From sequence record NC_070870.1: a stretch of 64,000 nucleotides of DNA, one strand, 5' to 3'. The notes beneath the pieces were generated by a model, which saw only the letters and a program-made list of their open reading frames with translations, made no database searches and was not told the DNA's origin. The DNA comes from Escherichia phage phi G17. The position numbers were made by a program, and so were the translations under genes. The first letter of the stretch is position 1, and each line of letters begins with the position of its first letter. Shown here in pieces: positions 10,607 to 55,849 of the stretch.

Positions 10607-10669
10607 TACACTGGCTTACTGTAGAGTAGGCTTCCTATATACGATATAAGTTTGAACAGGAAACATGCT

Positions 10670-21022: not shown

Positions 21023-21029
21023 ATAAAAA

Positions 21030-21072: not shown

Positions 21073-21276
21073 TCATCTTTCATTAGGAAGTTTTCCTGTT
21101 TCGATAATACTTCTCAGAGTTTCCTCTGTAGGGAACCACAGAAATGAGAAGTAGAGTTTCTTAGCCACGTAACGAGTTACTCCCAGCTTCTCTGCGATTT
21201 CATCGAATGAATATGTACGGACGGTATTGTTGAGAATGGCTTCACGAACAACAGAGGTAATAGATACTTGTGTCAT
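21073..21276 (-). CDS. Small putative HTH DNA-binding protein (67 aa)
   Basis: ATG at 21276 with AGGAAA upstream; helix-turn-helix-like segment FDEIAEKLGVTRYVAKK. Confidence 0.45.
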   Translation of the reverse strand: MTQVSITSVVREAILNNTVRTYSFDEIAEKLGVTRYVAKKLYFSFLWFPTEETLRSIIETGKLPNER

Positions 21277-21300
21277 AATAGTTTCCTACAGATATGAGAA

Positions 21301-21330
21301 AGCCCTCACTAGGAGGGCTTGTTTTGTTTT
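21301..21330. promoter_or_regulatory. Hairpin AGCCCTC-actag-GAGGGCT followed by GTTTTGTTTT (terminator-like, strand ambiguous)
   Basis: 7-bp stem; lies about 25 nt upstream of minus-strand gene start 21276; shares stem/loop core with hairpin at 43732. Confidence 0.35.
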
Positions 21331-21400
21331 GGCTTCTAGAGCCTTACCACATGTCGGGTAGTTCAGTACCTTTCGGTAAAAACTACCTTACACCTGTTTG

Positions 21401-21793
21401 TTAAATTGTGCAACCACCACCGTCACATGTGTTGTTTTCTGCAAAGGAAGCCAGTGCCTTAGCAGTCTCCTCTTTCTCATGCAGTGCCTGACGTAGCAGG
21501 TAACCTTCTAATTCCCAAATCTTATTGAATGCATTTTCATATGCATAACGACGACCTACCCACTCATCGTAGATAGCTGGGTCAACACAGGCAGATACGC
21601 CTTCAACTTTGAAGCCATTTTCCAGGATGATAGTGCAATAGGTTACTAGGCTCAGATTAGCCAAATCATCTTCCGGGATTGCAGAAGGGTTAGCGAATCC
21701 AGACTTCACTGCATCAGCACCATTGAAATAGTAGACGCTTTTAATTTTAGCTTCGATTGATTCTTTACTTACTGTTGCCATTATTAGCCTCAT
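21401..21793 (-). CDS. Hypothetical protein (130 aa)
   Basis: ORF, minus strand, downstream of terminator 21950..21976. Confidence 0.45.
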   Translation of the reverse strand: MRLIMATVSKESIEAKIKSVYYFNGADAVKSGFANPSAIPEDDLANLSLVTYCTIILENGFKVEGVSACVDPAIYDEWVGRRYAYENAFNKIWELEGYLLRQALHEKEETAKALASFAENNTCDGGGCTI

Positions 21794-21949: not shown

Positions 21950-21976
21950 AATAAAAAAGTCCCTCCGAAGAGGGAC
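21950..21976 (-). terminator. Intrinsic terminator (minus strand) GTCCCTC-ttcg-GAGGGAC + TTTTTTAT
   Basis: Perfect 7-bp stem, UUCG-type loop, 6-T run on minus strand. Confidence 0.7.
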
Positions 21977-22135
21977 TTAGTAGCTTTTAATAGATAGCTG
22001 TATTTGAGCATTATAGTCTGCTCATACTCACACTCTTCTGTCGAAGAATATGTTTACAATATCTAGAGTGCCGGACTGTCTTACCGGCATTGTCTTTAGA
22101 GTGCTAAGCAATCAGGACTATGTTCTCTATTAATG

Positions 22136-22211
22136 GGTGCCCACTACTGGATTTGAACCAGTGACTTTCCGATTATTAGTCGGTTGCTTTCCCCGTCTAA
22201 GCTAAGTGGAC
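22136..22211 (-). tRNA. tRNA gene (minus strand), apparent anticodon AAT (Ile-like?), CCA not fully encoded
   Basis: By-eye cloverleaf: acceptor GTCCACT/AGTGGGC (one G-T pair), D-stem GCTT/AAGC, anticodon stem CCGA/TCGG with loop CTAATAA, T-arm ACTGG-TTCAAAT-CCAGT, discriminator A. Confidence 0.6.
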
Positions 22212-23260
22212 ATAATAGGGTGAGTCATGCCAGGCTCTAACTGGCTCCTTCTTCGCAATCCTTACATACCCCTACATAATTATTGCGTTAAGCTTTTTTG
22301 TTTAAGTTTAAGTGAAGGTGTTCTTGCTGACTCATAATACTTTCAATTCAGAGTAGCACTCACACAGGATTGTGCCTTTGAATACCGGGAAGTATAAACG
22401 AGTGCTACTTTGAATTGGTTCCCCGTTTCTAATACACGGACGGGGACACTCCATGGTCGTTTGATAATCAGGACGACTCACTCCTGACTGAGGTTACGCT
22501 GTTAGGCGACCATCAGATACGCTTCTTCGTTTGCATTTATGTTATTGGTTCGTTTCTAAAAAACCGCATAATCGCTACGAAAACTATCGGGGAGTGCACT
22601 AGCTCTGGGCCACGCTCGTGGACATCGACCTTCCTTCCACAGCTAATCAACTAATACACTCCCCTGTTAGGAAGCTGCCAGGGATTCCACCTGGCTCCAT
22701 CTGTTTTTAAAGTCACTCAGATATCGTCTGGACTTCCCATTGCCGTGGGATGTTGATAGAAATGAGAGGTTCTATCGGGGAGTACACTTACTCGACTGGT
22801 TAAACTATATCTATCCAGCTCCCCAGCAAATGTACTCCCCGATAGTCCATAATAGGAGGGAGGGGACGAATCCTCCCTTTATACCCTATGTTGCATGTAA
22901 GATCTAACAATTCGATGCTGTAGATAGCGATACTATCCGACATTAAACCCAGCCCCTGGGGGCTTGTGTGATTATAATGCTCAACATTGAGCGGTTAGTT
23001 GATAAGGGATCTGAAGCCTTATCCCAAAGATAATAACCTTTGGGATATAGCCTAAGATTCAGAAATGGCCCCTATATGGAGAGGCCATTGATTAACCCGA
23101 ATGTTGCTTTACATTTGCTGTGATAACCAGTTCTTAAAATAGTCTGTCTGACGGATGGGGAGCCACCCCTAGCGTCAGTGCCATACGGCAAAGATTAAGT
23201 TAAGAAAGGTTATGATAGGAGTTCCTATCTCAAAGGATTCTGACAGAACCCTTCACGATA
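22212..23260. other. ORF-free, highly structured region with repeated motif CTATCGGGGAGT(G/A)CACT and multiple long inverted repeats
   Basis: No ORF of 60 aa or more on either strand for about 1.05 kb; 15-bp perfect inverted repeat 22772..22786 / 22831..22845; paralogous copy at 22584..22600 with partner CACTCCCC at 22657..22664; many further stem-loops. Confidence 0.5.
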
Positions 23261-35590: not shown

Positions 35591-36050
35591 AGATGTAAGG
35601 TTTTAAATCTGGGGGAGTGTAATCTTTCCCCTTCATGACTTTCTTATTCTCGTTGAAGATAGGTTCCCCATCTTCGAACTTAGAATAGTTTGAGCGATTG
35701 ACTTCAGCCAATGCTCCCGGGACATTCATCCCAAGGAAAGTACCGACGCCTGTTGCTGTAACAATCTGATCAGCAAGGCTATCAAGGATAGCTAAACGAT
35801 GGCTGTTCGGTGCATATACCTCTTTGTCATCTTTTTTCATTAAATCAGACAGTTTAGTTAATGCTGTAATAGCATTATGAAGAGTATTGTAAGCATCTTC
35901 TGAGTTAGAAACTAACTCGTCGAGCATCTCAACTACTTCTTCCAGATGGCAACCAATCTGGGTACTAATATTCTTACTCGTCGGATTCGATACGGCTTTT
36001 AGAAACCATTGCCGTGTGTTTTCCAGCGTACAAACGGATGAACTTGTCAT
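35589..36050 (-). CDS. Hypothetical protein (153 aa; true start may be the internal ATG at 35927)
   Basis: ORF; overlaps upstream gene. Confidence 0.4.
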   Translation of the reverse strand: MTSSSVCTLENTRQWFLKAVSNPTSKNISTQIGCHLEEVVEMLDELVSNSEDAYNTLHNAITALTKLSDLMKKDDKEVYAPNSHRLAILDSLADQIVTATGVGTFLGMNVPGALAEVNRSNYSKFEDGEPIFNENKKVMKGKDYTPPDLKPYI

Positions 36051-36369: not shown

Positions 36370-36431
36370 AGTACATTTCCTCTTCAAATTTACCCTCACT
36401 TTATTACAAGTGAGGGCATTTGAACAGGCTA

Positions 36432-38481: not shown

Positions 38482-41046
38482 TTAGTTACCTTTCAGTTTA
38501 TTTAGACGATTACGGTAGAGGGACTTAAACCCAGGAATATCCTCTGGGTGTTTCTTGAGATACCTGACTAAGCTAGTCAAGTCCAGGTTTTGCAGGATGT
38601 CATCCTGTTTCCAGCTATAACAAAATAAATTTTTGTACTTGCTGAGTATTTCGTAATGTTTATGATTATGTGGGTTAGTCATTGTCATGTATGGCACTAA
38701 GTCTTCCTCTGACTTAATGTACCCCATTTCAATGAGCTTCCTCTCTTTACTCCGATGATTTCTTAGGAAATCATACGCCCATTCATACTCTGGATTAAAA
38801 ATCAGATTTTGTAGTGGTTTGAATGTTAGACCAAGAATATCGAGGATTTCCCAATACTCTCTGTCATCCAATCCTGTGTGCTCAGTAATACCAATACGCT
38901 GTTCAGTGACATACTTCTTGAATCCCTTACTGGTAATAACCGACATCAGTTCACTAAAGCGAACATCGTCAATGTGAATAGCACCACGTCGTTTAGCCTT
39001 GTTAACTTCGATTTGATTGCGACAGACAACAGTCTCTGCTTTCATCTCATCGGACAACTCATACCATTTCCACATGGTTCCAATTTGGGCATTATCTGGT
39101 CTACCAGAACCAACCTGATTGGCTAGTACGTAGTACTTAGGCATCTCCACTTCAACGAATCGAGGTTCTGCATGGTATCTTGGGTCAGCAAATTCACTCT
39201 GAATGTAAGGTTTAGTTTCCCAATCACCATTACTATTTCGTACAGGAGTAGTACCAAGTACAGCATTCAATGAAACCAGGGCATTAGTTTTACCACCTGC
39301 TTTGGTTTTATTTTCAGCTATAGTTTTAGCCCGTTTAGCAGCAGCTATTTTAGCCTGTTCCTTACGGAAGTTAGTTGGCTTGTCCCACTCATTATATTGA
39401 GTAAGGTCAATTACCCGATAACCCATAGCAGTGAACTTAGCTACAGCTTTTTCTGCTTCGCCTTTCTTAGGACTAACCACATGAACAAAAGCTGTACGCT
39501 CCAAGTCACCTCGATTGTATTCAGGGAAGTACGAGAAAGAATCTGCACAGTCAGATAAACGTCTGGTAACTACAACGTTTTTGGTAGTGAATATGCCAAT
39601 ACCTTTATGGCAGTCGTAATCCGTCTTAAAGTAGGTAACAAGATTGCTCTTCTCTAAGCTAACACAGTTACCTTGGTTCATGATGTAGCCAGACCACTTA
39701 ACACCAGATGCTTTTAATTTAGCAAGCTGAGGTAAATGCAAATGACGATACACCAATTCCTGGAAAGGATAGTATGTACCCTCTTCACGCGTTTCCTTAA
39801 GAGCACTCATGGCTTTACCATACAGTTTCTTAAGACCTGCATATTCAGGACGAGCCAGTAATGTTTTATTGGATAGGTTACGCCAATGCTTAATATAATG
39901 CTTACGCTGCTTAGCCCACAAGCTAGAGGACATATAGTGTTGAACAGTTCTGTCTGTAACAGCACGCAGGAAAGATGGATATTCCCAGTAACGAGTAGAA
40001 GATTCGGAGGCATATTCTTCAACCTGCTTAATAGCTTCAGGAATCTTAGCCTTAATCTCTTTCTCCATACGGTCTACTAAATCTACACATAGAGTAGTAA
40101 TACCATCGTCGGTTAACTTCTGGTTAGACAAAGTTTCTCGACTAGGAGCAATAGCTAAGGTATCTGGTGCAGCCTGAACTACTAAAGTGCCAGCACCAAT
40201 GATATTCATGAAGTTGAGGATAAGACCTACAGCCTCTTCACTAGCTGGGCTGGATACTACTGGGTACATTACATTACCGTAGCGAACAAAGATGTTACTG
40301 TTGCCCATATAGTTCTGATACCAGCTATCAGACAAATCATATGAACCAGGTTCGAATGACATACCTAATGTACCCAGAAGAGTGTAGTCACCCTGTGTAA
40401 TACTATTACCTGTTTCAACCCGATTGAGTTTAGGAGTACTAAGTTCAGCCTTAATCTCACCGTTAAATACGATGGATTTAATGTACTGAATAAAGGTATC
40501 TAAATCTCGCTTACCTAACTGGAATTTAACTTCCAGACCGGATTCCTTAGTTGGAATACCAGTAACAATAGGAATAATACCCGGTTTGCCGTCATTCTCA
40601 ATTGCAGCCTTAGCTACGTTATATACCGACATCTTTCCTTGGTTCCATGAAGTAACCTGGAAGCTATCTGTATAAGCGAATGGGGACTTACATCCCAGAC
40701 CAAATCCACCAGTAACACTACTGTTGGACTTCTTGGTAGATGCACCATAGACACCATAAATGGAACCAATGAGTTCATCTGGGATACCGTTACCAAAGTC
40801 ACGGAAGGTAATAAAGTGGTCTGTATCAATGGTAATACGGATAGGAATATCAGTCTTACCTGCTTCAATATGAGCATCCCAACTGTTACAGATAGTCTCA
40901 CGGACTACTGCCAGGGTAGGATTGTTATATAGGGAAGTACTTAATACGTGAAAGAATGCCGGGTCATCAGAGATGCCAAAGGCGATTGCTTCTTTACCAC
41001 CCAGTGTCGCTGAAGTGGCTGATTGATTGGTATCTGCAACTAACAT
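38482..41046 (-). CDS. rIIA: rIIA-like protein with N-terminal GHKL (histidine-kinase-like) ATPase domain (854 aa)
   Basis: N-terminal motifs RETICNSWDA (N-box-like), DFGNGIPDE (DxGxG), GGFGLGCKS (G2 box). Confidence 0.55.
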   Translation of the reverse strand: MLVADTNQSATSATLGGKEAIAFGISDDPAFFHVLSTSLYNNPTLAVVRETICNSWDAHIEAGKTDIPIRITIDTDHFITFRDFGNGIPDELIGSIYGVYGASTKKSNSSVTGGFGLGCKSPFAYTDSFQVTSWNQGKMSVYNVAKAAIENDGKPGIIPIVTGIPTKESGLEVKFQLGKRDLDTFIQYIKSIVFNGEIKAELSTPKLNRVETGNSITQGDYTLLGTLGMSFEPGSYDLSDSWYQNYMGNSNIFVRYGNVMYPVVSSPASEEAVGLILNFMNIIGAGTLVVQAAPDTLAIAPSRETLSNQKLTDDGITTLCVDLVDRMEKEIKAKIPEAIKQVEEYASESSTRYWEYPSFLRAVTDRTVQHYMSSSLWAKQRKHYIKHWRNLSNKTLLARPEYAGLKKLYGKAMSALKETREEGTYYPFQELVYRHLHLPQLAKLKASGVKWSGYIMNQGNCVSLEKSNLVTYFKTDYDCHKGIGIFTTKNVVVTRRLSDCADSFSYFPEYNRGDLERTAFVHVVSPKKGEAEKAVAKFTAMGYRVIDLTQYNEWDKPTNFRKEQAKIAAAKRAKTIAENKTKAGGKTNALVSLNAVLGTTPVRNSNGDWETKPYIQSEFADPRYHAEPRFVEVEMPKYYVLANQVGSGRPDNAQIGTMWKWYELSDEMKAETVVCRNQIEVNKAKRRGAIHIDDVRFSELMSVITSKGFKKYVTEQRIGITEHTGLDDREYWEILDILGLTFKPLQNLIFNPEYEWAYDFLRNHRSKERKLIEMGYIKSEEDLVPYMTMTNPHNHKHYEILSKYKNLFCYSWKQDDILQNLDLTSLVRYLKKHPEDIPGFKSLYRNRLNKLKGN

Positions 41047-41179
41047 TTATTTACTCTCCAGTTTAAATGTTGCTTATAGGAAAAGACTTAATACAACTAC
41101 GGAAATACCTATGGCTGTACCGTATGTACCTAATAATTCATTAAGTAAGTAGGGTAGAGCCATGAAATAGTTGAATACT

Positions 41180-41512
41180 TCAGCCATTGCGTTTACTTGC
41201 CATTGCTTGAAGGACGAATACAGCTATATCACTTGCAGTGTCATCAGTAAGTTCCTCCACTGAATAGTGACTTTCACCATCAAGTTCACCATTTTGCCAT
41301 TCATCCAGCATACGCTGCACTTCAGCTAATCCAGCCTGAATCATTTCCTTGCTTGGTTCCAGCCATAATTTACGTTCCTCTGCCAGTGCAGCAATGCACA
41401 TACACAGTGAAGCGATGTTAGCCGGACAAGCAGCAATATCACCAGTGAGAGCTATCTCACTTAAAGGTTTAGATTCCCCAGTTTGGGCCAGTATAACTTC
41501 AGGATTAATCAC
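41180..41512 (-). CDS. Hypothetical protein (110 aa)
   Basis: ORF. Confidence 0.4.
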   Translation of the reverse strand: MINPEVILAQTGESKPLSEIALTGDIAACPANIASLCMCIAALAEERKLWLEPSKEMIQAGLAEVQRMLDEWQNGELDGESHYSVEELTDDTASDIAVFVLQAMASKRNG

Positions 41513-41720
41513 GTATTTGCTCCAGGTTATGAGTAGGAATAGGGAAGAACGGATAGTCCCCAGTAGGGTCTAAGGTTACGGACACATGATGAATACCAGT
41601 AATCTGGGACATGCTAATAGCAGTGTCGAAATCATCCTGTGTACAGGCGTAAACAACATCACCTTTATTGACTTGTGGGTCCATTACAGGTGTGTCTTTG
41701 ATACGGTATTTAGCAGGCAT
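41505..41720 (-). CDS. Hypothetical protein (71 aa)
   Basis: ORF. Confidence 0.4.
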   Translation of the reverse strand: MPAKYRIKDTPVMDPQVNKGDVVYACTQDDFDTAISMSQITGIHHVSVTLDPTGDYPFFPIPTHNLEQIRD

Positions 41721-41729
41721 ACTATTTCC

Positions 41730-41954
41730 TTATTTTTTATAAATAAAAGGATTTCTGTAATCCCAGGCTCTATTAAGTTTTTCCAGCTTAAACCCTGCAT
41801 AACCTGATTCTTTAGACAGGGTTTCTTCTGCAATATCTACTGCGTTAATCGTGCATAAACGCCCATCTATACAGATGTTTTTGAAACTGCCAGTGGATTC
41901 CCTGTATAGTCCATTGGAATCTTTCTCCAACATAGTTGCATACCAACTTGCCAT
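41730..41954 (-). CDS. Hypothetical protein (74 aa from ATG at 41954; track start 41984 is TTG inside the terminator T-run)
   Basis: AGGAGG upstream of ATG at 41954. Confidence 0.4.
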   Translation of the reverse strand: MASWYATMLEKDSNGLYRESTGSFKNICIDGRLCTINAVDIAEETLSKESGYAGFKLEKLNRAWDYRNPFIYKK

Positions 41955-41980
41955 AAGTCCTCCTGGGGCAGTAATTGAAA

Positions 41981-42008
41981 CCAAAAAAAGACCTCCCGGA
42001 GGAGGTCT
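41981..42008 (-). terminator. Intrinsic terminator (minus strand) AGACCTCC-tccg-GGAGGTCT + TTTTTTT
   Basis: 8-bp stem, 7-T run. Confidence 0.6.
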
Positions 42009-42013
42009 TAGGT

Positions 42014-42253
42014 TTACTTACGATTCCGTCCTACGAAGAATTGTAATAGACGTTCCTCAGCATCATCCTGTTCCTTGGTGGCTACATAGTCGCGTGCATA
42101 GTAATACACACACCATAAGCCAAGAACACATGCAGAGAAACGGGCTACTACGAAGAACATCTCTTCCAGGCTCTGTGCACCATGTAGTGCAAATACAAAT
42201 TCCAGAACCAGGATGATACTTATAATCATTGCTTGGATAGCTAAACGTTTCAT
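42014..42253 (-). CDS. Small membrane protein (79 aa, two predicted TM helices)
   Basis: Hydrophobic segments IQAMIISIILVLEFVFAL and VVARFSACVLGLWCVYYY. Confidence 0.45.
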   Translation of the reverse strand: MKRLAIQAMIISIILVLEFVFALHGAQSLEEMFFVVARFSACVLGLWCVYYYARDYVATKEQDDAEERLLQFFVGRNRK

Positions 42254-43194
42254 TCTGTAATTGTTTCTCCGGGTATTAGTTTCCTAAATTGGATGAAATC
42301 CAGTAAGTTGCCTGAATACAGCTTACCTTCACGATCCATTGAAGTAACACCCTGTTCCCAGGTTAATGGGTTCTGGTTGTTAATGAACTTATCACCGAAC
42401 AGCATAGGAGTTGCCTGGTGTTCAGTAGGGGATGCATGAATAGGTTGGTCTTCAACTAACTTAGCAAACAATCCTAAGTCCTCTTCAATAGTAGAAGGAC
42501 GGCCTTCGAAATTGTTGTAAGAAGCACGAGCACAGCGAGCAGCACTTACTTTAAGAAGTAAGCCATACACTTCTGTAGCACTTGGTTCATCACGAGTAAT
42601 TCGTTGATGTTTGCAATGAGAGTAAGCAGCACTACGGTCAGGAAAGCCGATGTAAGGCAGATGCCACTCACCTTGGGACAGCTTAGATGGAACACTTTCA
42701 TTATGAGCCTTACGCATTGCTTGAGCCAATTCACGAATCTCTGGCTGTGCATCCTTATGGTCACGCAAGCCATAGAAGTTAGCCCAGCTAGTTGAGGTTA
42801 CCACTACACGGATATGTGTGAATGGCTCCAGAATACGGTTAACAATCTGCTTATGTACTTGCCCACGACGTAGTTGTTCAGCATATACAGCAGCAGCAGA
42901 TGCAGCGTTATCCCAGATAAACTTAGCATCCTCAATCTCCATAGGAGTGAGTTCTTCATCTGCTTGCATACCTTTCTGGTTCTTGCCCCAGTGACTTGGC
43001 ATCACTGGTTCATTACGAACCTGTTCAATGAATTTAGAAGTAGGAATAGCACGACTGCTTGAAGCATTACGGTTGAATACACGGTGGGTCATAAACTCAC
43101 TGTGGATGAATCGGGGATAGACCAATTCAAAGGTAGTAATACGAGTACCCGTTGCATGATGAACGGAATCTGCAATGACAGTTGCCTTAATCAT
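42250..43194 (-). CDS. thyX: ThyX-like flavin-dependent thymidylate synthase (314 aa)
   Basis: Segment HSEFMTHRVFNRNASSSRAIP resembles the ThyX RHR...S signature. Confidence 0.5.
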   Translation of the reverse strand: MIKATVIADSVHHATGTRITTFELVYPRFIHSEFMTHRVFNRNASSSRAIPTSKFIEQVRNEPVMPSHWGKNQKGMQADEELTPMEIEDAKFIWDNAASAAAVYAEQLRRGQVHKQIVNRILEPFTHIRVVVTSTSWANFYGLRDHKDAQPEIRELAQAMRKAHNESVPSKLSQGEWHLPYIGFPDRSAAYSHCKHQRITRDEPSATEVYGLLLKVSAARCARASYNNFEGRPSTIEEDLGLFAKLVEDQPIHASPTEHQATPMLFGDKFINNQNPLTWEQGVTSMDREGKLYSGNLLDFIQFRKLIPGETITE

Positions 43195-43637
43195 TAGAAT
43201 GACCTTAGATAGTTGGTAATACCACTACGGTTTTCTGTAATCCTCTTGGCCTGAACATATACCAGCTTAAACTCACTACGGGGTAGTTCCTGTAATACTG
43301 CTATACCTTCAGTAAGAGCCACAGAACACGCTACAGCGGTTTCTTCTTTAAAGGAGTACAAGTCTTCATACATGAGGGCTTCATACTCTTTACGGAGCAT
43401 ACAGAGAGCATCTCTTGCCTTATCACTTACTTCTTGTGAACCAGCAGACATAGCTAAGCTGTATATGATAAAGACTTGTTCGAAAACAAAGTCCAGTAAT
43501 CTATCAGGGGTGTTAGTACCCATGAATAATTTTGTTGTGTAGGAACGAGCTTTACGGTTGAGTACATACTCATCCTCTATGCCTTTCTTATAAAGAACAG
43601 GGTTTCGTTCCCTTTTTCGTAGGAATGGAATACGCAT
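43194..43637 (-). CDS. Hypothetical protein (147 aa)
   Basis: ORF; stop overlaps thyX-like start. Confidence 0.45.
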   Translation of the reverse strand: MRIPFLRKRERNPVLYKKGIEDEYVLNRKARSYTTKLFMGTNTPDRLLDFVFEQVFIIYSLAMSAGSQEVSDKARDALCMLRKEYEALMYEDLYSFKEETAVACSVALTEGIAVLQELPRSEFKLVYVQAKRITENRSGITNYLRSF

Positions 43638-43654
43638 TAGTAAGTCTTTCCTAG

Positions 43655-43685
43655 TAAATAAAAAAGCCCACGGGTTAGGTGGGCT
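43655..43685 (-). terminator. Intrinsic terminator (minus strand) AGCCCAC-ctaaccc-GTGGGCT + TTTTTATTT
   Basis: 7-bp stem and T-run. Confidence 0.55.
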
Positions 43686-43765
43686 TGGGTTAGGAGATGG
43701 ATAAGCAATGAGCTGGAAGTAACTTCCACAAATAGCCCTACTAGAGGGCTATTCAGGTAAGTTAC

Positions 43766-43972
43766 TTATTCAGCTTCTGCTTCAGGCTTAGCTCCAGACA
43801 GTGCTTTAGCTACATTACGACGAACAGAGTCGTAACCTACTTCAGTTCGTAGAAGAGAGCCGTCAACAAAAGCAATATCTGCTTTTCCGTCATCGCTGCA
43901 TTGTACTGTTACTACGTTTGCTGCAACTACTGTAAACTTACGACCATTTGCTTTGGTAGTGAATACTGACAT
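43766..43972 (-). CDS. Hypothetical small protein (68 aa)
   Basis: ORF. Confidence 0.4.
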   Translation of the reverse strand: MSVFTTKANGRKFTVVAANVVTVQCSDDGKADIAFVDGSLLRTEVGYDSVRRNVAKALSGAKPEAEAE

Positions 43973-43981
43973 GTTGTTTCC

Positions 43982-44488
43982 TTATTTACTGCTTCTCGCA
44001 GCTACTGGTTTGTTTTCCTGGTTATTGTACTTGCCTGTGTATGTGGCAGGTTCTTGAACCAGATGAAATAGTACTTGAGCTATCCCGGAACCAGCCGGGA
44101 TATGTAATTTCTTACGCCCGTGATAGACCAGTTCAAGGGTAAGATACCCTTTCCATCCTGGTTCTATTACGGTATTGAACACTGATAGTGCACGTCTTGC
44201 CCATGTAGACTTATCGTGAACGATAGCTACACAGGACGGGGACATGTTGAACTTCTCAATTGCTGAAGCCAATGCGAATTTACCAAGATGGTGTGATATT
44301 TGTTTTCCATCAACGACTTTCACCATTGGAATCAACCCAAATAAGCGATAGAAGGTAATGTCCTGCTTTATGCGTATGTCGTAACCAGCTTCACCCAATC
44401 CATAGCTTACACCATGCTCGGATACCTTATGGTCTGGGACATCCAGCAACTGAGATGAACGATATAGAGAATTACCATTAACAACCAT
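43982..44488 (-). CDS. dcd: dCTP deaminase (dUTPase-fold) family protein (168 aa)
   Basis: STWARRALSVFNTVIEPGWKGYLTLEL and GIAQVLF resemble dCTP deaminase core motifs. Confidence 0.6.
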   Translation of the reverse strand: MVVNGNSLYRSSQLLDVPDHKVSEHGVSYGLGEAGYDIRIKQDITFYRLFGLIPMVKVVDGKQISHHLGKFALASAIEKFNMSPSCVAIVHDKSTWARRALSVFNTVIEPGWKGYLTLELVYHGRKKLHIPAGSGIAQVLFHLVQEPATYTGKYNNQENKPVAARSSK

Positions 44489-45663
44489 TATTTCATTCCT
44501 TTAGGGATATGAACTACCTCCCCAAAAGGTACGGTAGCACTAGGGTTATTCAGAACACACCAGATGATTGGAATATCAAACGGGAGTTCTTCCATTGGGC
44601 GAACGTACATATCAGAGAATATGATTGCAGCGGTTGGCTTATTCTTAATAATCCATTCGCGTACTGGTTCAAGGTTTGTACCACCACGACCAGTAATCTT
44701 AATCTCTTCAAAAGTATCTTCTTCAGTGATGTCTATTTCTTCTTGGATAATATCGTCGAAGGTAATAAGGGACATCTTCTTAGGATTGAACTGGCTCTTA
44801 ACGTAGGCAACCTCTGAGTTAAAACGCAGAGAGTCAGCACTACTGATAGAACCAGATACATCCTCAAAGTATGCTAAATGTCGTAAACGTCCTTCATCAT
44901 CTTCCAGGGATGGTAGATAGATGTCAGTGAAACGACGGTTAGGTCTGGCCCACGTATAGCGTGAGTCATCAATGTCAGTGAAGAAGTCCATAAGGACTTC
45001 CTGCCAAGGAACCACTGGTTTAAGGAATTGGGTAATAACCTCTTCCATATGACCAGCACCTTTACCTGGCATCACTCCACCAGCCATCTTCTGGCTTTGC
45101 ATTGCACGTACTACGTTGTTGACAACAGCACCCTGGGACTGCCCCGAAGAGGGAGCTTTCATGTCGCCAGCAAGACCTGCTCCGGCACCCCCTGACGGCT
45201 GCTGCCTTTTCTGTGGGTTCTTCATCAGGTCATCGTAGATGTCTTCTTCGACCCATCCTTTATATTGAGGGTCTTTGCAAATACCTTCGTCGATACCAGT
45301 GAACTTGTAACCATCTTCCTCTAACTGAAGGTTAATGAAGTGGTCACATGCCTGGTTCCAGACTTCTGGGTCACGGCTTCCACAACGGATGCCATGCAGA
45401 TATGCCACATGCCAGAGTTCGTGCATTAGCACTGTTTCTCTTGCATCAGGACACATCCAGATAAAGAAGTCTGGGTTGAATCGTAGTTCTATCCCATCGG
45501 TACATGCAGTAGGACAATCCTCACGATTCCATGAGAACTTAAGACTACACAGCAATGAACCAAAGAAAGCAGCACTCCTGCCCAAAAATGCCTGTGCTTG
45601 AATACGGTCATACTCACGCATGAGTTGTTCATCACTAAGTGTGTGCTGAGGTATCTGGTTCAT
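44488..45663 (-). CDS. VWA-domain protein with N-terminal HExxH metallopeptidase-like region (391 aa)
   Basis: MHELWHVAYLHG (HExxH); MIDAS-like DVSGSIS; immediately downstream of MoxR-like ATPase. Confidence 0.55.
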   Translation of the reverse strand: MNQIPQHTLSDEQLMREYDRIQAQAFLGRSAAFFGSLLCSLKFSWNREDCPTACTDGIELRFNPDFFIWMCPDARETVLMHELWHVAYLHGIRCGSRDPEVWNQACDHFINLQLEEDGYKFTGIDEGICKDPQYKGWVEEDIYDDLMKNPQKRQQPSGGAGAGLAGDMKAPSSGQSQGAVVNNVVRAMQSQKMAGGVMPGKGAGHMEEVITQFLKPVVPWQEVLMDFFTDIDDSRYTWARPNRRFTDIYLPSLEDDEGRLRHLAYFEDVSGSISSADSLRFNSEVAYVKSQFNPKKMSLITFDDIIQEEIDITEEDTFEEIKITGRGGTNLEPVREWIIKNKPTAAIIFSDMYVRPMEELPFDIPIIWCVLNNPSATVPFGEVVHIPKGMK

Positions 45664-45670
45664 GATGTAA

Positions 45671-46723
45671 TTATCCGTGAATGTAGCGGGAGATATTGGC
45701 AGCAGCCTTACGCCATTCAGGGGTAGCCTGAATTTCTGGTAATGCTTTGCCTACTGTACGGAAGTACAGAATCTTATGGGTGAACGTTTTAAAGCGTTCA
45801 ATGTACTGAAGAACATCAGCGAAGTTATCTTCAGTGGTCTTGTTAGCCAGATGGTTAACGGTAGCCCAACACAGGTTATTATCTTCCGGCAGTGCACAGC
45901 CCATGGGGTCTTTGACTACCTTCTCAATCGTAATCATACGATTGTATACCTGAGTGAACTGTACAAACTCCACAGCTTTACCCGGTGTAACAAATCCACT
46001 GTAGTAAAGGGAATCTTCATCAGGCAGTGCCCCTTCGGGGCAGTTATGTAAGTCCTTGTTAATGAAGTCCCATGTTCTCGGACACGCGAATGTTTTGTTC
46101 TTATGTGCTGGGTCGAAGTCATGCAGGTAGCCTGGGTTAGCATGTAAGAATGCAACCAGACGTTCATCCCACTCATATGGAATCATTACGTCTTCAACAA
46201 AGATGTCGAAGTTAAGTTCCATTTCGAAGTGTACAACACGAGACTGCATTGCAGTACCCAGTGGGTTAACGATGGCACGGTCAGTAGCTTTGTTACCGGC
46301 ACAGACAATCATCACATTGGGGTGAAGTTTCTTCTGACCGGTCATACGGTCAAGAATCAGCTTGTATGCAGCAGCTACTACTTCTTTCTTAGCTGAGTTG
46401 AACTCATCCAGGAACAGGAGCCAGCCATTATAACCTTCAGGGATTTCATCCCCTTCAATAGGGAACAGGTCAGCGAATGGAATAAATTCTGCACGGTCAC
46501 CATTACGGAATGGTAGACCGGACAAGTCTTCAGGAGCAGAAGTAGACAGACGATGGTCAATCAGCTTCATGCCAAATTCCTCTGCAACAGAACGAATGAT
46601 CGCAGACTTACCCATGCCTGGTGATGAAGTCAGAAACGGAACGTTACCTGCTTGCAAGGCACGGATGATAAAGTTACGGGCTTGACGTGTATTACATACG
46701 GTCAAGGAGTCAATGCTCGCCAT
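45671..46723 (-). CDS. MoxR-like AAA+ ATPase (350 aa)
   Basis: Walker A SSPGMGKSAI, Walker B LLFLDEF, sensor-like CAGNKATDRA; AGGAG upstream. Confidence 0.65.
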   Translation of the reverse strand: MASIDSLTVCNTRQARNFIIRALQAGNVPFLTSSPGMGKSAIIRSVAEEFGMKLIDHRLSTSAPEDLSGLPFRNGDRAEFIPFADLFPIEGDEIPEGYNGWLLFLDEFNSAKKEVVAAAYKLILDRMTGQKKLHPNVMIVCAGNKATDRAIVNPLGTAMQSRVVHFEMELNFDIFVEDVMIPYEWDERLVAFLHANPGYLHDFDPAHKNKTFACPRTWDFINKDLHNCPEGALPDEDSLYYSGFVTPGKAVEFVQFTQVYNRMITIEKVVKDPMGCALPEDNNLCWATVNHLANKTTEDNFADVLQYIERFKTFTHKILYFRTVGKALPEIQATPEWRKAAANISRYIHG

Positions 46724-46757
46724 TTACTTACTCTCCTAAAGTTAATGGAATTGCTAA

Positions 46758-47087
46758 TTAAGATTTAACGCAAGGGTATGCTTTGTGGATTGCCACATTA
46801 ATCATGTCAGCAGGATGGTTCAGTTTTTGGATAGTTGCATCCAACAGAATCTCATCTGCTACTTTGTGAAGTACATGCTTAAGCTGGATACCTTCTGGTA
46901 CGCAGTTATCGGTAATATCCACAGCCATGGATACCATACCCATGTAATAACCTTGGCTCGTATAATCAGGTGTATCGTACTTGTAGGCTTTGGCAGCAGC
47001 TTCCAGCAAGGTTGCACGACTAGATGCTTGAGCACCGAATGAAAGAGCTGATAGAACCACTACAGCAACAGCAATTAAAGTTTTCAT
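46758..47087 (-). CDS. Small secreted/periplasmic protein (109 aa) with signal peptide
   Basis: N-terminus MKTLIAVAVVVLSALSFGAQA (AXA cleavage-like). Confidence 0.5.
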   Translation of the reverse strand: MKTLIAVAVVVLSALSFGAQASSRATLLEAAAKAYKYDTPDYTSQGYYMGMVSMAVDITDNCVPEGIQLKHVLHKVADEILLDATIQKLNHPADMINVAIHKAYPCVKS

Positions 47088-47273
47088 TTAGTTACCTTTT
47101 AACTCGTTGAGTTGAAGTACTCCGGTAGGGGTTAATGACCACCCAAGACCGGCATTGAACTGTACTAAGCCCAGCTTCTTAAGAGACTGTGCGGTTTTGT
47201 TATTACGGTTGCTGGTGGCAGAACCACCTTGAACCATGCGAATGAAGATTACTTGGGACTGGGTAAGTTTCAT
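47088..47273 (-). CDS. Hypothetical small protein (61 aa)
   Basis: ORF. Confidence 0.4.
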   Translation of the reverse strand: MKLTQSQVIFIRMVQGGSATSNRNNKTAQSLKKLGLVQFNAGLGWSLTPTGVLQLNELKGN

Positions 47274-47458
47274 TTTTTCTCCGGTACGAACTGCATTACG
47301 CAGTTTTGATTACGAGGGATACTCAATTCACATTCATGCTTGAGGGTTTGCGTTACAGAATTTGGTGTAGGACCAAAGTAGTTATTATTAATAGCTACAA
47401 TTCCTGCACCAATGAACCCACCTAGTACGAATGAGAAGAATGCAATCTCTTTGTACAT
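47270..47458 (-). CDS. Small membrane protein (62 aa, one TM helix)
   Basis: IAFFSFVLGGFIGAGIVAI; GGAG upstream. Confidence 0.45.
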   Translation of the reverse strand: MYKEIAFFSFVLGGFIGAGIVAINNNYFGPTPNSVTQTLKHECELSIPRNQNCVMQFVPEKK

Positions 47459-47482
47459 TTCCTGGCTCCAGTTTGTTTAAGT

Positions 47483-47512
47483 CAAAAAAAGACCTCCTAT
47501 TTCTAGGAGGTC
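47483..47512 (-). terminator. Intrinsic terminator (minus strand) GACCTCCTA-gaaa-TAGGAGGTC + TTTTTTT
   Basis: 9-bp stem, 7-T run. Confidence 0.65.
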
Positions 47513-47561
47513 AAACTTGAGGGTTTCGTGTCAGGGTTTATAACCCCAAATAAGAACTCAA

Positions 47562-48158
47562 TTACAGAGCAGAGTAGGCTAATTGTAGCGTAGTAGATAC
47601 ACCATCTTTGGTAATAGTCAGTTCTGCATCATAAACCCCAGGGCTTGGCTCAGTGCCCCACTTATAACTGATTACCCCGTAACCTAAGGTTGGTTCCAGT
47701 TTAATATCATAGGAAGCTGCTGCTTCCCCTTCCACAGCAAGGGTGATGGTTCCAGTTGAACCAGTAGGCTTAGGTACTACACGGAGGTAGCGTACACCTT
47801 CATATACATCCAAAGTCTCCCCGTCTTGGTACAGGCGGGAAATTTCCTCTGTTTCCGGGTCATAGCGATAAACATCAAACCCAACTGGTACAGGGTCTGA
47901 GCCGGGAACTACTTCATAGATATCCCAGTCGTTAAGGTTGGTCAGGTTGTCCGGGAAGAATGCAGTCTGAGCTACATTTCCACCGTTACGGAAGTAAGCA
48001 ATCTTACGGATACCGTGCCAGATAACATAACTATCCGGGTAGGTAGCATCAGGGTGTTCAAATGAACCGATAGCTACAAAACCATCCTCCATAGAGGGAG
48101 AGGTTGAGTAGTTAATTTTCTTGGTAGATTGTTGAGCAGATACATATACAGTTGGCAT
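47562..48158 (-). CDS. Hypothetical beta-rich protein (198 aa)
   Basis: ORF; part of the terminator-flanked two-gene cassette. Confidence 0.5.
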   Translation of the reverse strand: MPTVYVSAQQSTKKINYSTSPSMEDGFVAIGSFEHPDATYPDSYVIWHGIRKIAYFRNGGNVAQTAFFPDNLTNLNDWDIYEVVPGSDPVPVGFDVYRYDPETEEISRLYQDGETLDVYEGVRYLRVVPKPTGSTGTITLAVEGEAAASYDIKLEPTLGYGVISYKWGTEPSPGVYDAELTITKDGVSTTLQLAYSAL

Positions 48159-51951: not shown

Positions 51952-52001
51952 AGCTTCTTTCCTTTAATGAGTTAATTACCACAAGGTGCGGAGCACCCTT
52001 C

Positions 52002-54439: not shown

Positions 54440-54469
54440 AAAAATAAAAGGACTACCCGAAGGTAGTCC
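54440..54469 (-). terminator. Intrinsic terminator (minus strand) GGACTACC-ttcg-GGTAGTCC + TTTTATTTTT
   Basis: 8-bp stem, UUCG loop, T-run. Confidence 0.65.
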
Positions 54470-54862: not shown

Positions 54863-54992
54863 TTTGTACTCTCCAGATAAATGATTGTTTGATTTATGGG
54901 TTTGTCTGTCGGTGACTAAACCCAAGAAAAGACTTAAGATTTCAATGATTAGTGGATTCACATGAATCCTTTAGACGCGGAGCGTCTGGTTT

Positions 54993-55700: not shown

Positions 55701-55849
55701 GATGATAGCTCCAAGGTTAGATGATAGGACGACATGTCCATAACATGCGGAGCATGTGTAACGTGTAAGGTGGGGTAGGGCAGTGGCTACACGGTCAACA
55801 TACCGGGGGGGATGGTTGAGTGTAAGGGTGTAGCCCCAGCCACACCACT

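What the first reader, a model, noticed from the sequence alone, without database searches (positions are those of the whole stretch)
43733..43751. Recurrent hairpin with identical ACTAG loop (second copy)
See the copy at 21301; this one lies just downstream of a 68-aa gene and about 50 nt upstream of a canonical terminator at 43655..43685.
Basis: seen in the sequence. Interest (0 to 1): 0.35.

Follow-up and report, generated by a model that had tools for sequence, protein, structure and literature searches.

The report
Two unrelated hairpins sharing a loop
The two hairpins with the same ACTAG loop in this N4-like phage are real, but they are different ordinary elements (a weak terminator and a conserved stem-loop after gene gp27), and the shared loop is a recent coincidence found only in this phage and its closest relative.

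Summary
The window is an N4-like coliphage (G7C group; closest relative Shigella phage Moonfish). The hairpin is present: perfect 9-bp stem at 43731-43753, loop ACTAG at 43740-43744. On the transcribed minus strand it lies 12 nt after the gp27-like 68-aa gene and 44 nt before a canonical terminator. A hairpin at this position occurs in N4, KP8-like, Moo19 and G7C-like phages, with strongly covarying stems and G·U pairs almost only on the RNA-like strand. That indicates a selected RNA stem-loop. Its loop is not conserved (at least nine variants, one an exact flip), and CTAGT occurs only in this phage and Moonfish. It has no U-tract and fails a terminator score that all ten control terminators pass. 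The other copy (21300-21320) is invariant in G7C-like phages, has A- and T-rich flanks, scores as a weak terminator, and is annotated as a terminator in PhAPEC5. So these are two different ordinary elements, not one recurrent motif. The function of site 2 is inferred: an RNA stability or processing hairpin. In passing: site 2 abuts a 68-nt sRNA-like module that is highly conserved and single-copy in enterobacterial N4-like phages. Interest is low.

The parts
43731..43753 (-). Site-2 hairpin. On the transcribed strand it reads AAUAGCCCU-CUAGU-AGGGCUAUU (9 perfect pairs, 5-nt loop). It is the feature in the finding.
   Evidence: It is conserved by position, with covariation, in 15 lineages including N4. 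G.U pairs and greater stability lie on this strand. It is not an intrinsic terminator (d = -17 on minus, -33 on plus).
43711..43775 (-). Extended helix in this phage. AGCUG..AAGUAACUU, overlapping the gp27 stop codon (43766-43768), pairs with AAGUUACUU..CAGCU around the apical hairpin, giving about 27 bp with small internal loops.
   Evidence: RNAfold. Flank duplex energy is -17.4 kcal/mol with 0 of 1000 shuffles as good. The extension is marginal or absent in other lineages, so it is not a conserved feature.
43766..43972 (-). 68-aa gene, homologue of N4 gp27, whose 3' end the hairpin follows.
   Evidence: ORF list. The homologues are annotated as similar to N4 gp27 in PhAPEC5 and Moo19. No Pfam family.
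43660..43727 (-). Conserved 68-nt module directly 3' of the hairpin. It comprises the small palindrome GGAAG-UUA-CUUCC (43715-43727), the invariant CAUUGCUUA (43702-43710), a CU-rich stretch, and a canonical terminator (stem 43664-43686 plus U-run).
   Evidence: Alignment A2 has 87% column identity from N4 to G7C-likes. Covariance model R1 finds one copy per enterobacterial N4-like genome and none in 67 more distant N4-like loci. Terminator score d = +23.
21300..21320 (.). Site-1 hairpin AAGCCCTC-ACTAG-GAGGGCTT (8 bp). It is a weak, probably bidirectional, intrinsic terminator between the 130-aa gene of the N4 Gp49/Sf6 gene 66 family (21401-21793, minus) and the 67-aa gene (21073-21276, minus).
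   Evidence: Terminator score is d = +10.2 on the + strand (tail TTGTTTTGTTTTGG) and -6.3 on the minus strand; the PhAPEC5 version scores +3.0 rightward. ARNold calls a terminator at the homologous spot in PhAPEC5, 35680-35706. The stem is invariant in most G7C-like genomes, with loop CTAGT or TTAGT. Moonfish has one stem mismatch.
21321..21334 (+). T-rich tail (GTTTTGTTTTGG) that makes site 1 terminator-like for + strand (late, host RNA polymerase) transcripts that read through the terminator at the end of the vRNAP gene.

Best explanation
The two ACTAG hairpins are not copies of one specialised element. Site 2, the finding, is the tip of an RNA stem-loop in the 3' untranslated region of the gp27-like gene on the early/middle (window minus strand) transcript. 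Selection maintains its structure in all enterobacterial N4-like phages, while its loop sequence is free to vary. It is not a transcription terminator. It most likely acts after transcription, as a barrier to 3'-to-5' exonucleases and/or a processing site that fixes a stable 3' end for the upstream message. The true terminator lies 44 nt further on. Site 1 is a weak intrinsic terminator that can work in both directions. It attenuates rightward transcription into the variable last gene(s), and it backs up the main terminator against late host-polymerase transcripts coming from the vRNAP gene. The identical 5-nt loop is a recent state confined to this phage and Moonfish, with no sign of function. 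Shown here: the structures, their conservation and covariation, the strand bias, and the terminator scores. Inferred: the post-transcriptional role of site 2 and the actual termination activity of site 1.
For: The genome is N4-like, G7C group. A hairpin directly after gp27 is present in the window, Moonfish, Moo19, Jgk1, L027, L028, G7C, PhAPEC5, SP5M, CU10EC, KP8-like contigs and N4 itself, with different stem sequences. Pair counting on alignment A1 gives 89.6% of cells paired against 30-51% when partners are slid. Eight of 15 pairs change on both sides, and 0 of 500 shuffles reach any measure. The RNA-like strand folds better in 13 of 14 lineages and holds 25 G.U pairs against 2 on the complement. 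The site-2 loop has at least nine variants, including an exact inversion between G7C and PhAPEC5. CTAGT occurs only in the window and Moonfish, and no other N4-like contig in IMG/VR has it at this site. With the d'Aubenton-Carafa score, ten control terminators give +20 to +50, site 2 gives -17 and -33, and site 1 gives +10 on the + strand and -6 on the minus strand. Terminators in the early region, which by established N4 biology (PMC4496689) is transcribed by the virion polymerase, are canonical hairpin-plus-U types such as 54450-54469 (d = +30). So phage-polymerase terminators here do carry U-tracts. Relatives' records already annotate these spots: stem_loop at G7C 13300-13316 and terminator at PhAPEC5 35680-35706. 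The same stem with the ACTAG loop occurs in about 45 unrelated viral contigs, nearly all with an A-tract on one side, so they are ordinary terminators. None of 121 sampled hairpins with this stem and a 5-nt loop had ACTAG or CTAGT.
Against: No transcript-end data exist for this phage, G7C or N4 in the literature I could search, so the role of site 2 is inferred only. Within this window the loop identity is nominally improbable, of the order of 0.3-1%, so a non-random origin such as ectopic repair between the two hairpins cannot be excluded. The tail after the site-2 stem (T-N-TGGA) is conserved across genera and resembles the start region of the phage's own hairpin promoters; a pure decay-barrier role does not explain this. 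The long helix seen in this window is not conserved. Site 1 scores only weakly as a terminator, and its stem never varies apart from one Moonfish mismatch, so it offers no covariation evidence.
Confidence: 0.62

Rival explanations
1. Site 2 is a hairpin-type promoter, like the GC-rich hairpin middle promoters of Pseudomonas phage LUZ7 or a divergent form of the N4 virion-polymerase promoters. Transcription would start at the GG just 3' of the stem. It would drive the imm gene in phages that have it, and the short conserved 68-nt unit in this phage.
For: LUZ7 middle promoters are GC-rich hairpins (stem at least 6 bp) about 15 bp upstream of a G start (PMC9163698). In this window G residues lie 13, 15 and 16 nt from the loop centre. 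The tail T-N-TGG(A/G) right after the stem is conserved in N4, KP8 and G7C-likes. It matches the start region of the window's own early promoters, TATGGA and TTGTGG, and those listed for KP8 (PMC6950046). In imm-carrying genomes both hairpins, the one before imm and the one before the module, carry this tail.
Against: N4-type promoters need the hairpin on the template strand. Here the template-strand hairpin is weaker in 13 of 14 lineages, because G.U pairs become C.A mismatches. The loop is 5 nt with a pyrimidine at its centre on the template strand, and the GC-GGA-GC determinants are absent (requirements from PMC4496689). N4 middle promoters are described as AT-rich, -7 to +2, with no hairpin. 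No other 'hairpin + TNTGG' occurs in the middle region, so it cannot be the general middle promoter. The transcript would meet a terminator after about 65 nt.
Confidence: 0.12
2. Site 2 is a pause or termination signal specific to the phage's T7-like polymerases that does not need a U-tract. The gp24-gp27 transcription unit would therefore end, or be attenuated, at the hairpin itself.
For: Its position directly after a stop codon, the stable GC-rich stem and the RNA-strand bias fit a signal acting on nascent RNA. A second hairpin without a U-tract sits after rIIB at 36393-36416 and is also annotated stem_loop in G7C.
Against: Every other terminator on the phage-polymerase-transcribed strand, including those in the early region, is a canonical hairpin plus U-run. 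In most relatives the imm gene follows the hairpin directly with no obvious promoter, which argues against efficient termination. By general knowledge, T7-type class I terminators also need a U-run.
Confidence: 0.1
3. The two hairpins are one functional element defined by the ACTAG/CUAGU loop, for example a binding site for one protein, or two RNAs that pair through the self-complementary CUAG in their loops.
For: Identical 5-nt loop on the same strand in two of only three 5-nt-loop hairpins in the window. The AGCCCT/AGGGCT stem core is shared. CUAG is self-complementary (from the sequence). A 67-aa protein with a faint helix-turn-helix-like match is encoded next to site 1 (E = 0.087, below threshold).
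Against: The loop at site 2 is different in every lineage except Moonfish, while the stem is kept. G7C has the same 67-aa gene and the same site 1 but a different site-2 loop. PhAPEC5 keeps site 1 without the 67-aa gene and with loop TTAGT. The flanks and terminator scores of the two sites differ.
Confidence: 0.04
4. The hairpins matter at the DNA level, as cruciform-prone inverted repeats that mark recombination or insertion points for accessory gene cassettes.
For: Both sites sit exactly at cassette boundaries. The imm gene is present or absent right after site 2. Right after site 1 there is either a 67-aa gene or a Tad2-like/gp49-like gene. The exact loop inversion between G7C and PhAPEC5 shows that the repeat undergoes DNA-level rearrangement.
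Against: Intergenic hairpins are the usual boundaries of phage accessory cassettes without themselves being the cause (general knowledge of phage 'morons'). The strong RNA-strand G.U bias points to selection on the transcript, not on a symmetrical DNA cruciform.
Confidence: 0.05

Closest known systems
Rho-independent (intrinsic) terminators of enterobacterial phages
   Same: Site 1 has a GC-rich 8-bp stem starting AAGCCC, a short loop, an A-rich 5' flank and a T-rich 3' flank. It scores positive on the + strand, and the homologous spot is annotated as a terminator in PhAPEC5. The identical 19-nt hairpin serves as a terminator in many unrelated phages.
   Different: Site 2 lacks the U-tract on both strands and scores far below all ten control terminators. 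Site 1 is weak compared with the controls and sits upstream of one more gene rather than at the end of the unit.
Intercistronic mRNA-stabilising or processing stem-loops (REP-type decay barriers; T7 RNase III sites)
   Same: Site 2 is a stable stem-loop directly after a stop codon inside a polycistronic phage transcript. It is selected on the RNA strand and has a free loop sequence. In this phage the helix reaches about 27 bp with small internal loops, the size range of RNase III substrates.
   Different: No cleavage or stability data exist. The long helix is not conserved in relatives. There is no sequence relation to REP elements or T7 sites, and no Rfam family matches.
DNA-hairpin promoters of N4-like phages (N4 vRNAP early promoters; LUZ7 middle promoters)
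   Same: A GC-rich hairpin followed within 3-4 nt by T-N-TGG, as in the window's own early promoters at about 55750 and 51991 and in KP8. The distance to a G fits LUZ7 middle promoters.
   Different: The loop is 5 nt rather than 3-4. There is no GC-GGA-GC core. The hairpin is more stable on the non-template strand. It is a single occurrence in the middle region.
Features annotated in relatives: 'stem_loop' 13300-13316 in phage G7C and 'terminator' 35680-35706 in PhAPEC5
   Same: These are the positional homologues of site 2 and site 1 respectively.
   Different: The G7C site-2 loop is ACTATGC, not CTAGT. Neither record assigns a tested function.

Membership tests
Intrinsic (rho-independent) terminator | GC-rich stem-loop of about 5-12 bp with a short loop | tested here: met
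   Both sites: 9 bp with a 5-nt loop (43731-43753) and 8 bp with a 5-nt loop (21300-21320).
Intrinsic (rho-independent) terminator | Run of U (T) directly after the stem, with a positive d'Aubenton-Carafa score | tested here: not met
   Site 2 tails are TTTGTGGAAG (minus) and TTCAGGTAAG (plus), giving d = -17 and -33, while ten controls give +20 to +50. Site 1 differs: d = +10.2 on the + strand (met) and -6.3 on the minus strand (borderline; PhAPEC5 version +3.0).
Intrinsic (rho-independent) terminator | Measured transcript 3' ends or termination activity | not testable with these tools
   No transcript maps for N4, G7C or this phage were found.
N4-type virion-RNA-polymerase hairpin promoter | 5-7 bp stem and 3-nt loop with a central purine on the template strand, plus the conserved GC-GGA-GC core | tested here: not met
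   The template (+) strand loop is ACTAG (5 nt, central T). GCGGAGC occurs only at 51988, 54977 and 55747. Requirements are taken from PMC4496689.
N4-type virion-RNA-polymerase hairpin promoter | Hairpin forms stably on the template strand | tested here: not met
   The template-strand fold is weaker in 13 of 14 lineages, with 2 G.U pairs against 25 on the RNA-like strand.
N4-type virion-RNA-polymerase hairpin promoter | Start region T-N-TGG 3-4 nt after the stem | tested here: met
   Site 2 reads ...CTATT-TGTGGAAG, and the tail is conserved in N4 (TATGGAAA) and KP8 (TATGGAGG). Site 1 (TCTCATATCTG) does not have it.
LUZ7-type hairpin middle promoter | GC-rich stem of at least 6 bp, 3-4 nt loop, G start about 15 bp from the hairpin centre, recurring before middle genes | tested here: inconclusive
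   The stem and the G at +13/+15/+16 fit. The loop is 5 nt here and 3-8 nt in relatives. Only one such site exists in the middle region.
RNase III processing site (T7 type) | Irregular double helix of about 20 bp or more in an intercistronic position | tested here: inconclusive
   The window has about 27 bp (flank duplex p < 0.001). The extension is marginal in N4, KP8, Moonfish and G7C hp1 (p 0.07-0.09) and absent in Jgk1, L027 and L028. Cleavage is not testable.
Any curated RNA family (Rfam 15) | Match at or above the family's gathering score | tested here: not met
   Only a tRNA at 22138-22211 passes. The weak hits near both sites are generic terminator-like matches, e.g. Trp_leader at E = 0.12 and 3.6.

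The most novel reading that the evidence does not exclude
The site-2 hairpin is the 5' boundary, either a processing site or a LUZ7-like hairpin promoter, of a previously undescribed small RNA of about 68 nt. This RNA (window 43660-43727, minus strand) consists of a 5' mini-hairpin GGAAG-UUA-CUUCC, an invariant single-stranded CAUUGCUUA plus a CU-rich, anti-Shine-Dalgarno-like stretch, and a terminator whose stem is invariant from N4 to G7C. It is conserved as a single copy in all enterobacterial N4-like phages. The ACTAG loop itself would still be irrelevant.
Probability: 0.2. Interest if true: 0.5.

Novelty: already known. Interest (0 to 1): 0.15.

Why it matters
It matters little on its own. 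The result removes a false lead (a 'recurrent ACTAG-loop element') and shows that the two hairpins are ordinary features already marked in relatives' records. It is useful for annotating N4-like phages in two ways. First, not every GC-rich intergenic hairpin is a terminator. The hairpin after gp27 is conserved at the RNA level across genera without a U-tract. Second, it adjoins an unusually conserved non-coding module that would be a sensible target if anyone maps transcripts in N4 or G7C, where the middle-stage signals are still poorly defined.

Tried and rejected
- **Rfam.** Searches at gathering and at permissive thresholds found no family for either region.
- **CATTGCTTA as a promoter motif.** It is over-represented with one mismatch (35 against 20 expected), but every other copy on the middle strand lies inside a gene. 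Rejected.
- **GGAAGNNNCTTCC as a repeated signal.** There are 3 matches against 1.4 expected, and 19 of 100 shuffles do as well. Rejected.
- **'Hairpin + TNTGG' as a general middle-promoter signal.** It picked up only one early promoter, site 2 and a few weak hits that I did not examine further. The full list of intergenic regions shows no further convincing example.
- **Enrichment of the ACTAG loop.** The sample of 121 had no ACTAG or CTAGT loop. Enrichment is neither shown nor excluded.
- **Gene conversion from site 1 to site 2.** This would also have copied the extra C:G closing pair, which site 2 lacks (from the sequences). Judged unlikely, not excluded.
- **Attenuator reading.** I considered alternative pairing of the site-2 arms with the downstream terminator arms. 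The complementarity I saw by eye in this window is not kept in N4 or KP8 (sequences). Dropped.
- **Literature.** Three searches for transcript maps of N4 or G7C-like phages found nothing usable. The Genes & Development paper on N4 RNAPII is not held. The LUZ7 supplementary tables are not held.
- **Long helix as a conserved feature.** It is not supported outside this phage and the hp2 copies.

Full report
**What the window is.** A megablast of 40000-48000 finds 80 phage records, all N4-like podophages of the G7C group (Gamaleyavirus and neighbours, Schitoviridae). G7C is 89% identical and Shigella phage Moonfish 93%. The window's + strand is the G7C minus strand. The early and middle genes, which N4-type phages transcribe with their own two RNA polymerases (PMC4496689), therefore run on the window's minus strand, from about 57000 down to 21073. 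The late genes, including the 3456-aa virion RNA polymerase at 10652-21022, run on the + strand.

**The observation.** The hairpin is there. The perfect stem is AATAGCCCT/AGGGCTATT at 43731-43753, with loop ACTAG at 43740-43744. The other copy is AAGCCCTC-ACTAG-GAGGGCTT at 21300-21320. Only these two of 64 ACTAG or CTAGT occurrences have a flanking stem longer than 3 bp. The 68-aa gene is the homologue of N4 gp27 (annotations).

**Is it more than chance?** The window holds 26 perfect GC-rich hairpins (stem at least 7 bp) against about 6 in Markov shuffles, so intergenic hairpins as a class are real. Only 3 of the 26 have a 5-nt loop, and two of those share ACTAG on the same strand. For 3 pairs at about 0.001 each, that is of the order of 0.3-0.6%, perhaps 1-2% with looser hairpin definitions (my arithmetic). 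The shared stem core is less telling, because 5 of the 26 hairpins use AGCCC/GGGCT. The coincidence is therefore real within this genome. Whether it means anything depends on the comparison with relatives.

**Site 2 in relatives.** I collected the region downstream of the dCTP deaminase gene from 80 IMG/VR contigs, which include G7C (L030) and N4 (L035), plus GenBank relatives. A strong hairpin sits directly after gp27 in every enterobacterial N4-like lineage:

| Lineage | Hairpin (rightward strand) |
|---|---|
| Window, Moonfish | (A)ATAGCCCT-CTAGT-AGGGCTAT(T) |
| Moo19 | AATAGCCCTGC-AAT-GCAGGGCTATT |
| Jgk1, L027 | CCTGAATAGCCCTGC-ATC-GTAGGGCTATT(T/C)GGG |
| L028 | CCTGAATACCCCT-ACTATGC-AGGGGTATTTGGG |
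| G7C | TAAATAGCCCA-ACTATGC-TGGGCTATTTG |
| PhAPEC5 | same stem as G7C, loop GCATAGT |
| Other G7C-likes | loops CCATAGT, GCATATT, ATA, ATT |
| KP8-like | ATGCAGTCTAC-GCAACGTT-GTAGGCTGCAT |
| N4 | AATGGGGTTA-TATAG-TAGCCCCATT |

On an alignment of 15 distinct versions, 89.6% of cells pair against 30-51% when the partners are slid. Eight of 15 pairs change on both sides, and no shuffle out of 500 reaches the observed values (KP8 is out of register in that alignment and counts against the structure). The stem is therefore under selection and the loop is not. The loop has at least nine forms, and the G7C loop is the exact reverse complement of the PhAPEC5 loop. CTAGT is found only in the window and Moonfish. 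The IMG/VR motif scan found no other N4-like contig with it at this site.

**Which strand, and which molecule?** Folding each version on both strands shows the RNA-like (rightward) strand is more stable in 13 of 14 lineages, for example N4 -16.9 against -9.0 and Jgk1 -23.6 against -14.6 kcal/mol. It carries 25 G.U pairs against 2 on the complement. The one exception is G7C, whose loop is flipped. This is the signature of a structure selected in the rightward transcript. It argues against an N4-type promoter, where the polymerase binds a hairpin on the template strand (PMC4496689).

**Is site 2 a terminator?** I used the d'Aubenton-Carafa score with A:T base pairs trimmed. Ten canonical terminators in the window score +20 to +50 on their functional strand. 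These include terminators in the early region, which by established N4 biology is transcribed by the virion polymerase. Site 2 scores -17 (minus) and -33 (plus). In most relatives the superinfection-immunity gene imm follows the hairpin directly, which also argues against efficient termination. G7C's authors marked the spot as 'stem_loop', not as a terminator.

**Site 1.** The hairpin AAGCCCTC-(C/T)TAGT-GAGGGCTT (rightward strand) has an invariant stem in most G7C-like genomes examined. It is preceded by AAAACAAAA(C/T)A and followed by TT(A/C)TCAT(T/A)T, whatever gene comes next. In the window, G7C and pSb-1 that gene is a 67-aa gene. In PhAPEC5, Moonfish and others it is a gp49-like or Tad2-like gene. 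Moonfish even has a mismatch in the stem. In more distant N4-likes a canonical bidirectional terminator directly follows the upstream gene instead. Site 1 scores +10.2 on the + strand (tail TTGTTTTGTTTTGG) and -6.3 on the minus strand, and the PhAPEC5 version scores +3.0 rightward. ARNold called a terminator there in PhAPEC5, and the simple scan here lists it on the + strand. I read it as a weak, probably bidirectional, terminator or attenuator. Its anatomy is different from that of site 2.

**The hairpin sequence elsewhere.** The pattern AGCCCT(N)ACTAG(N)AGGGCT occurs in 55 IMG/VR contigs. About ten are N4-like (site 1). The rest are unrelated phages. In nearly all of them the two N positions are complementary and an A-tract precedes the ACTAG-reading strand, so they are ordinary terminators read from the other strand. 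ACTAG is thus not a preferred loop for this stem. Enrichment can be neither shown nor excluded.

**What surrounds site 2.** In this window the apical hairpin is extended by pairing of AAGUAACUU, at the gp27 stop codon, with AAGUUACUU. This gives a helix of about 27 bp (flank duplex -17.4 kcal/mol, 0 of 1000 shuffles). The extension is significant for the second hairpin (hp2) of imm-carrying genomes (p about 0.016). It is marginal in N4, KP8, Moonfish and G7C hp1 (0.07-0.09) and absent in Jgk1, L027 and L028. I therefore do not claim a conserved RNase III-type helix.

Directly 3' of the hairpin lies a stretch that is far more conserved than the hairpin. It reads T-N-TGGA, then the palindrome GGAAG-TTN-CTTCC (GGAG-GTTA-CTCC in KP8, GGAAATTCC in N4), then the invariant CATTGCTTA, a CU-rich run, and a terminator whose stem GCCCAC/GTGGGC is invariant from N4 to G7C (87% column identity). 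A covariance model finds exactly one copy per enterobacterial N4-like genome (window 43660-43727, 94 bits; N4, 52 bits) and none in 67 more distant N4-like loci. Those genomes include the sequences the model was built from. In layout it looks like a small RNA: a 5' hairpin, a single-stranded conserved core, and a terminator.

**The promoter rival.** LUZ7, an N4-like Pseudomonas phage, has GC-rich hairpin middle promoters about 15 bp upstream of a G start (PMC9163698). The window's three N4-type early promoters read, on the RNA-like strand:
- ACATGC-TCC-GCATGT-TATGGA
- AGACGC-TCC-GCGTCT-AAAGGA
- GGTGC-TCC-GCACC-TTGTGG

These come, and the KP8 paper lists the same type. Site 2's tail TGTGGAAG resembles those start regions. 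Four points count against a promoter:
- the strand asymmetry;
- the lack of the loop and stem determinants;
- the description of N4 middle promoters as AT-rich and hairpin-free;
- the absence of any other such site in the middle region.

I keep it as a rival at about 0.12.

**Verdict.** The implied idea of a recurrent element with a special loop is not supported. Site 2 is a conserved RNA stem-loop in the gp27 3' untranslated region. It is not a terminator, and it most likely acts as a decay barrier or processing site (this role is inferred). Site 1 is a weak terminator. The shared loop is a lineage-specific coincidence. Both features are already marked in relatives' records, and no Rfam family applies. 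Interest is low. The only lead of some value is the conserved 68-nt module next to site 2.

Noticed in passing
window 43660-43727 (minus strand): A 68-nt non-coding module between the site-2 hairpin and the next gene. It comprises the mini-hairpin GGAAG-UUA-CUUCC, the invariant CAUUGCUUA, a CU-rich run, and a terminator with an invariant stem GCCCAC/GUGGGC. Column identity from N4 to G7C-likes is 87%. There is one copy per enterobacterial N4-like genome and none in more distant N4-likes. Its layout looks like a small RNA.
   Followed up: partly
L030/L002 (G7C 13300-13316) versus L004 (PhAPEC5 about 11722-11750): The 7-nt loop of the site-2 hairpin is exactly inverted between G7C (ACTATGC) and PhAPEC5/SP5M (GCATAGT), with identical stems and flanks. 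This is a small flip between the inverted-repeat arms. L028 also has ACTATGC.
   Followed up: partly
window about 43728-43731 (junction); L004 11740-12075: This phage and Moonfish lack the superinfection-immunity gene imm, which most G7C-like phages carry between the site-2 hairpin and the conserved module. In the phages that have it, the imm cassette brings its own second hairpin (TAAGCATCATT-GTAT-AGTGGTGCTTG) just before GGAAGTTNCTTCC.
   Followed up: partly
window 55744-55760, 54971-54989, 51985-51997 (template = + strand): Three N4-type virion-RNA-polymerase early-promoter hairpins with the GC-GGA-GC core on the template strand. Two are followed by TATGGA or TTGTGG on the RNA-like strand. 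They match the promoters proposed for KP8.
   Followed up: partly
window 21322-21400 (minus strand): About 80 nt of conserved, strongly structured non-coding sequence between the 130-aa gene and site 1. It includes GGUAGUU..UACC-GAAA-GGUA..AACUACC. The 127-nt fold that contains it has MFE -42.1 kcal/mol and z = -4.4. It is kept in G7C-like phages whatever gene follows.
   Followed up: partly
window 36393-36416 (minus strand): A second stable hairpin without a U-tract (CCCTCACUU-GUAAUA-AAGUGAGGG) directly after rIIB. Its terminator scores are -34 and -48. G7C annotates a stem_loop at the equivalent position, 20939-20962.
   Followed up: no
window 21073-21276 and relatives' loci L281, L004, L003: The genes between the gp48-like gene and the end of the vRNAP gene vary between close relatives. 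This window has a 67-aa gene with a faint sigma-70 region-4-like match. Relatives carry genes annotated as Tad2-like, anti-CRISPR or gp49-like. It looks like an accessory or anti-defence hot spot.
   Followed up: no
window 22134-22212 (minus strand): A tRNA-Ile gene with anticodon AAT in a long non-coding stretch (about 21950-23260). It is also annotated in SP5M and PhAPEC5.
   Followed up: no
window minus-strand terminators at 21028, 21957, 43664, 49459, 49701, 54450: Six of the nine canonical terminators on the early/middle strand are followed by the same tail, TTTT(TT)ATTT. Because genes follow each terminator, these AT-rich tails might overlap the AT-rich middle promoters described for N4. 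This was not tested.
   Followed up: no
IMG/VR loci L103-L157: The exact 19-nt hairpin AGCCCT(C/G)ACTAG(G/C)AGGGCT occurs in about 45 unrelated viral contigs. Almost all have an A-tract on one side, so they are ordinary terminators. This looks like convergent use of a generic terminator sequence.
   Followed up: partly
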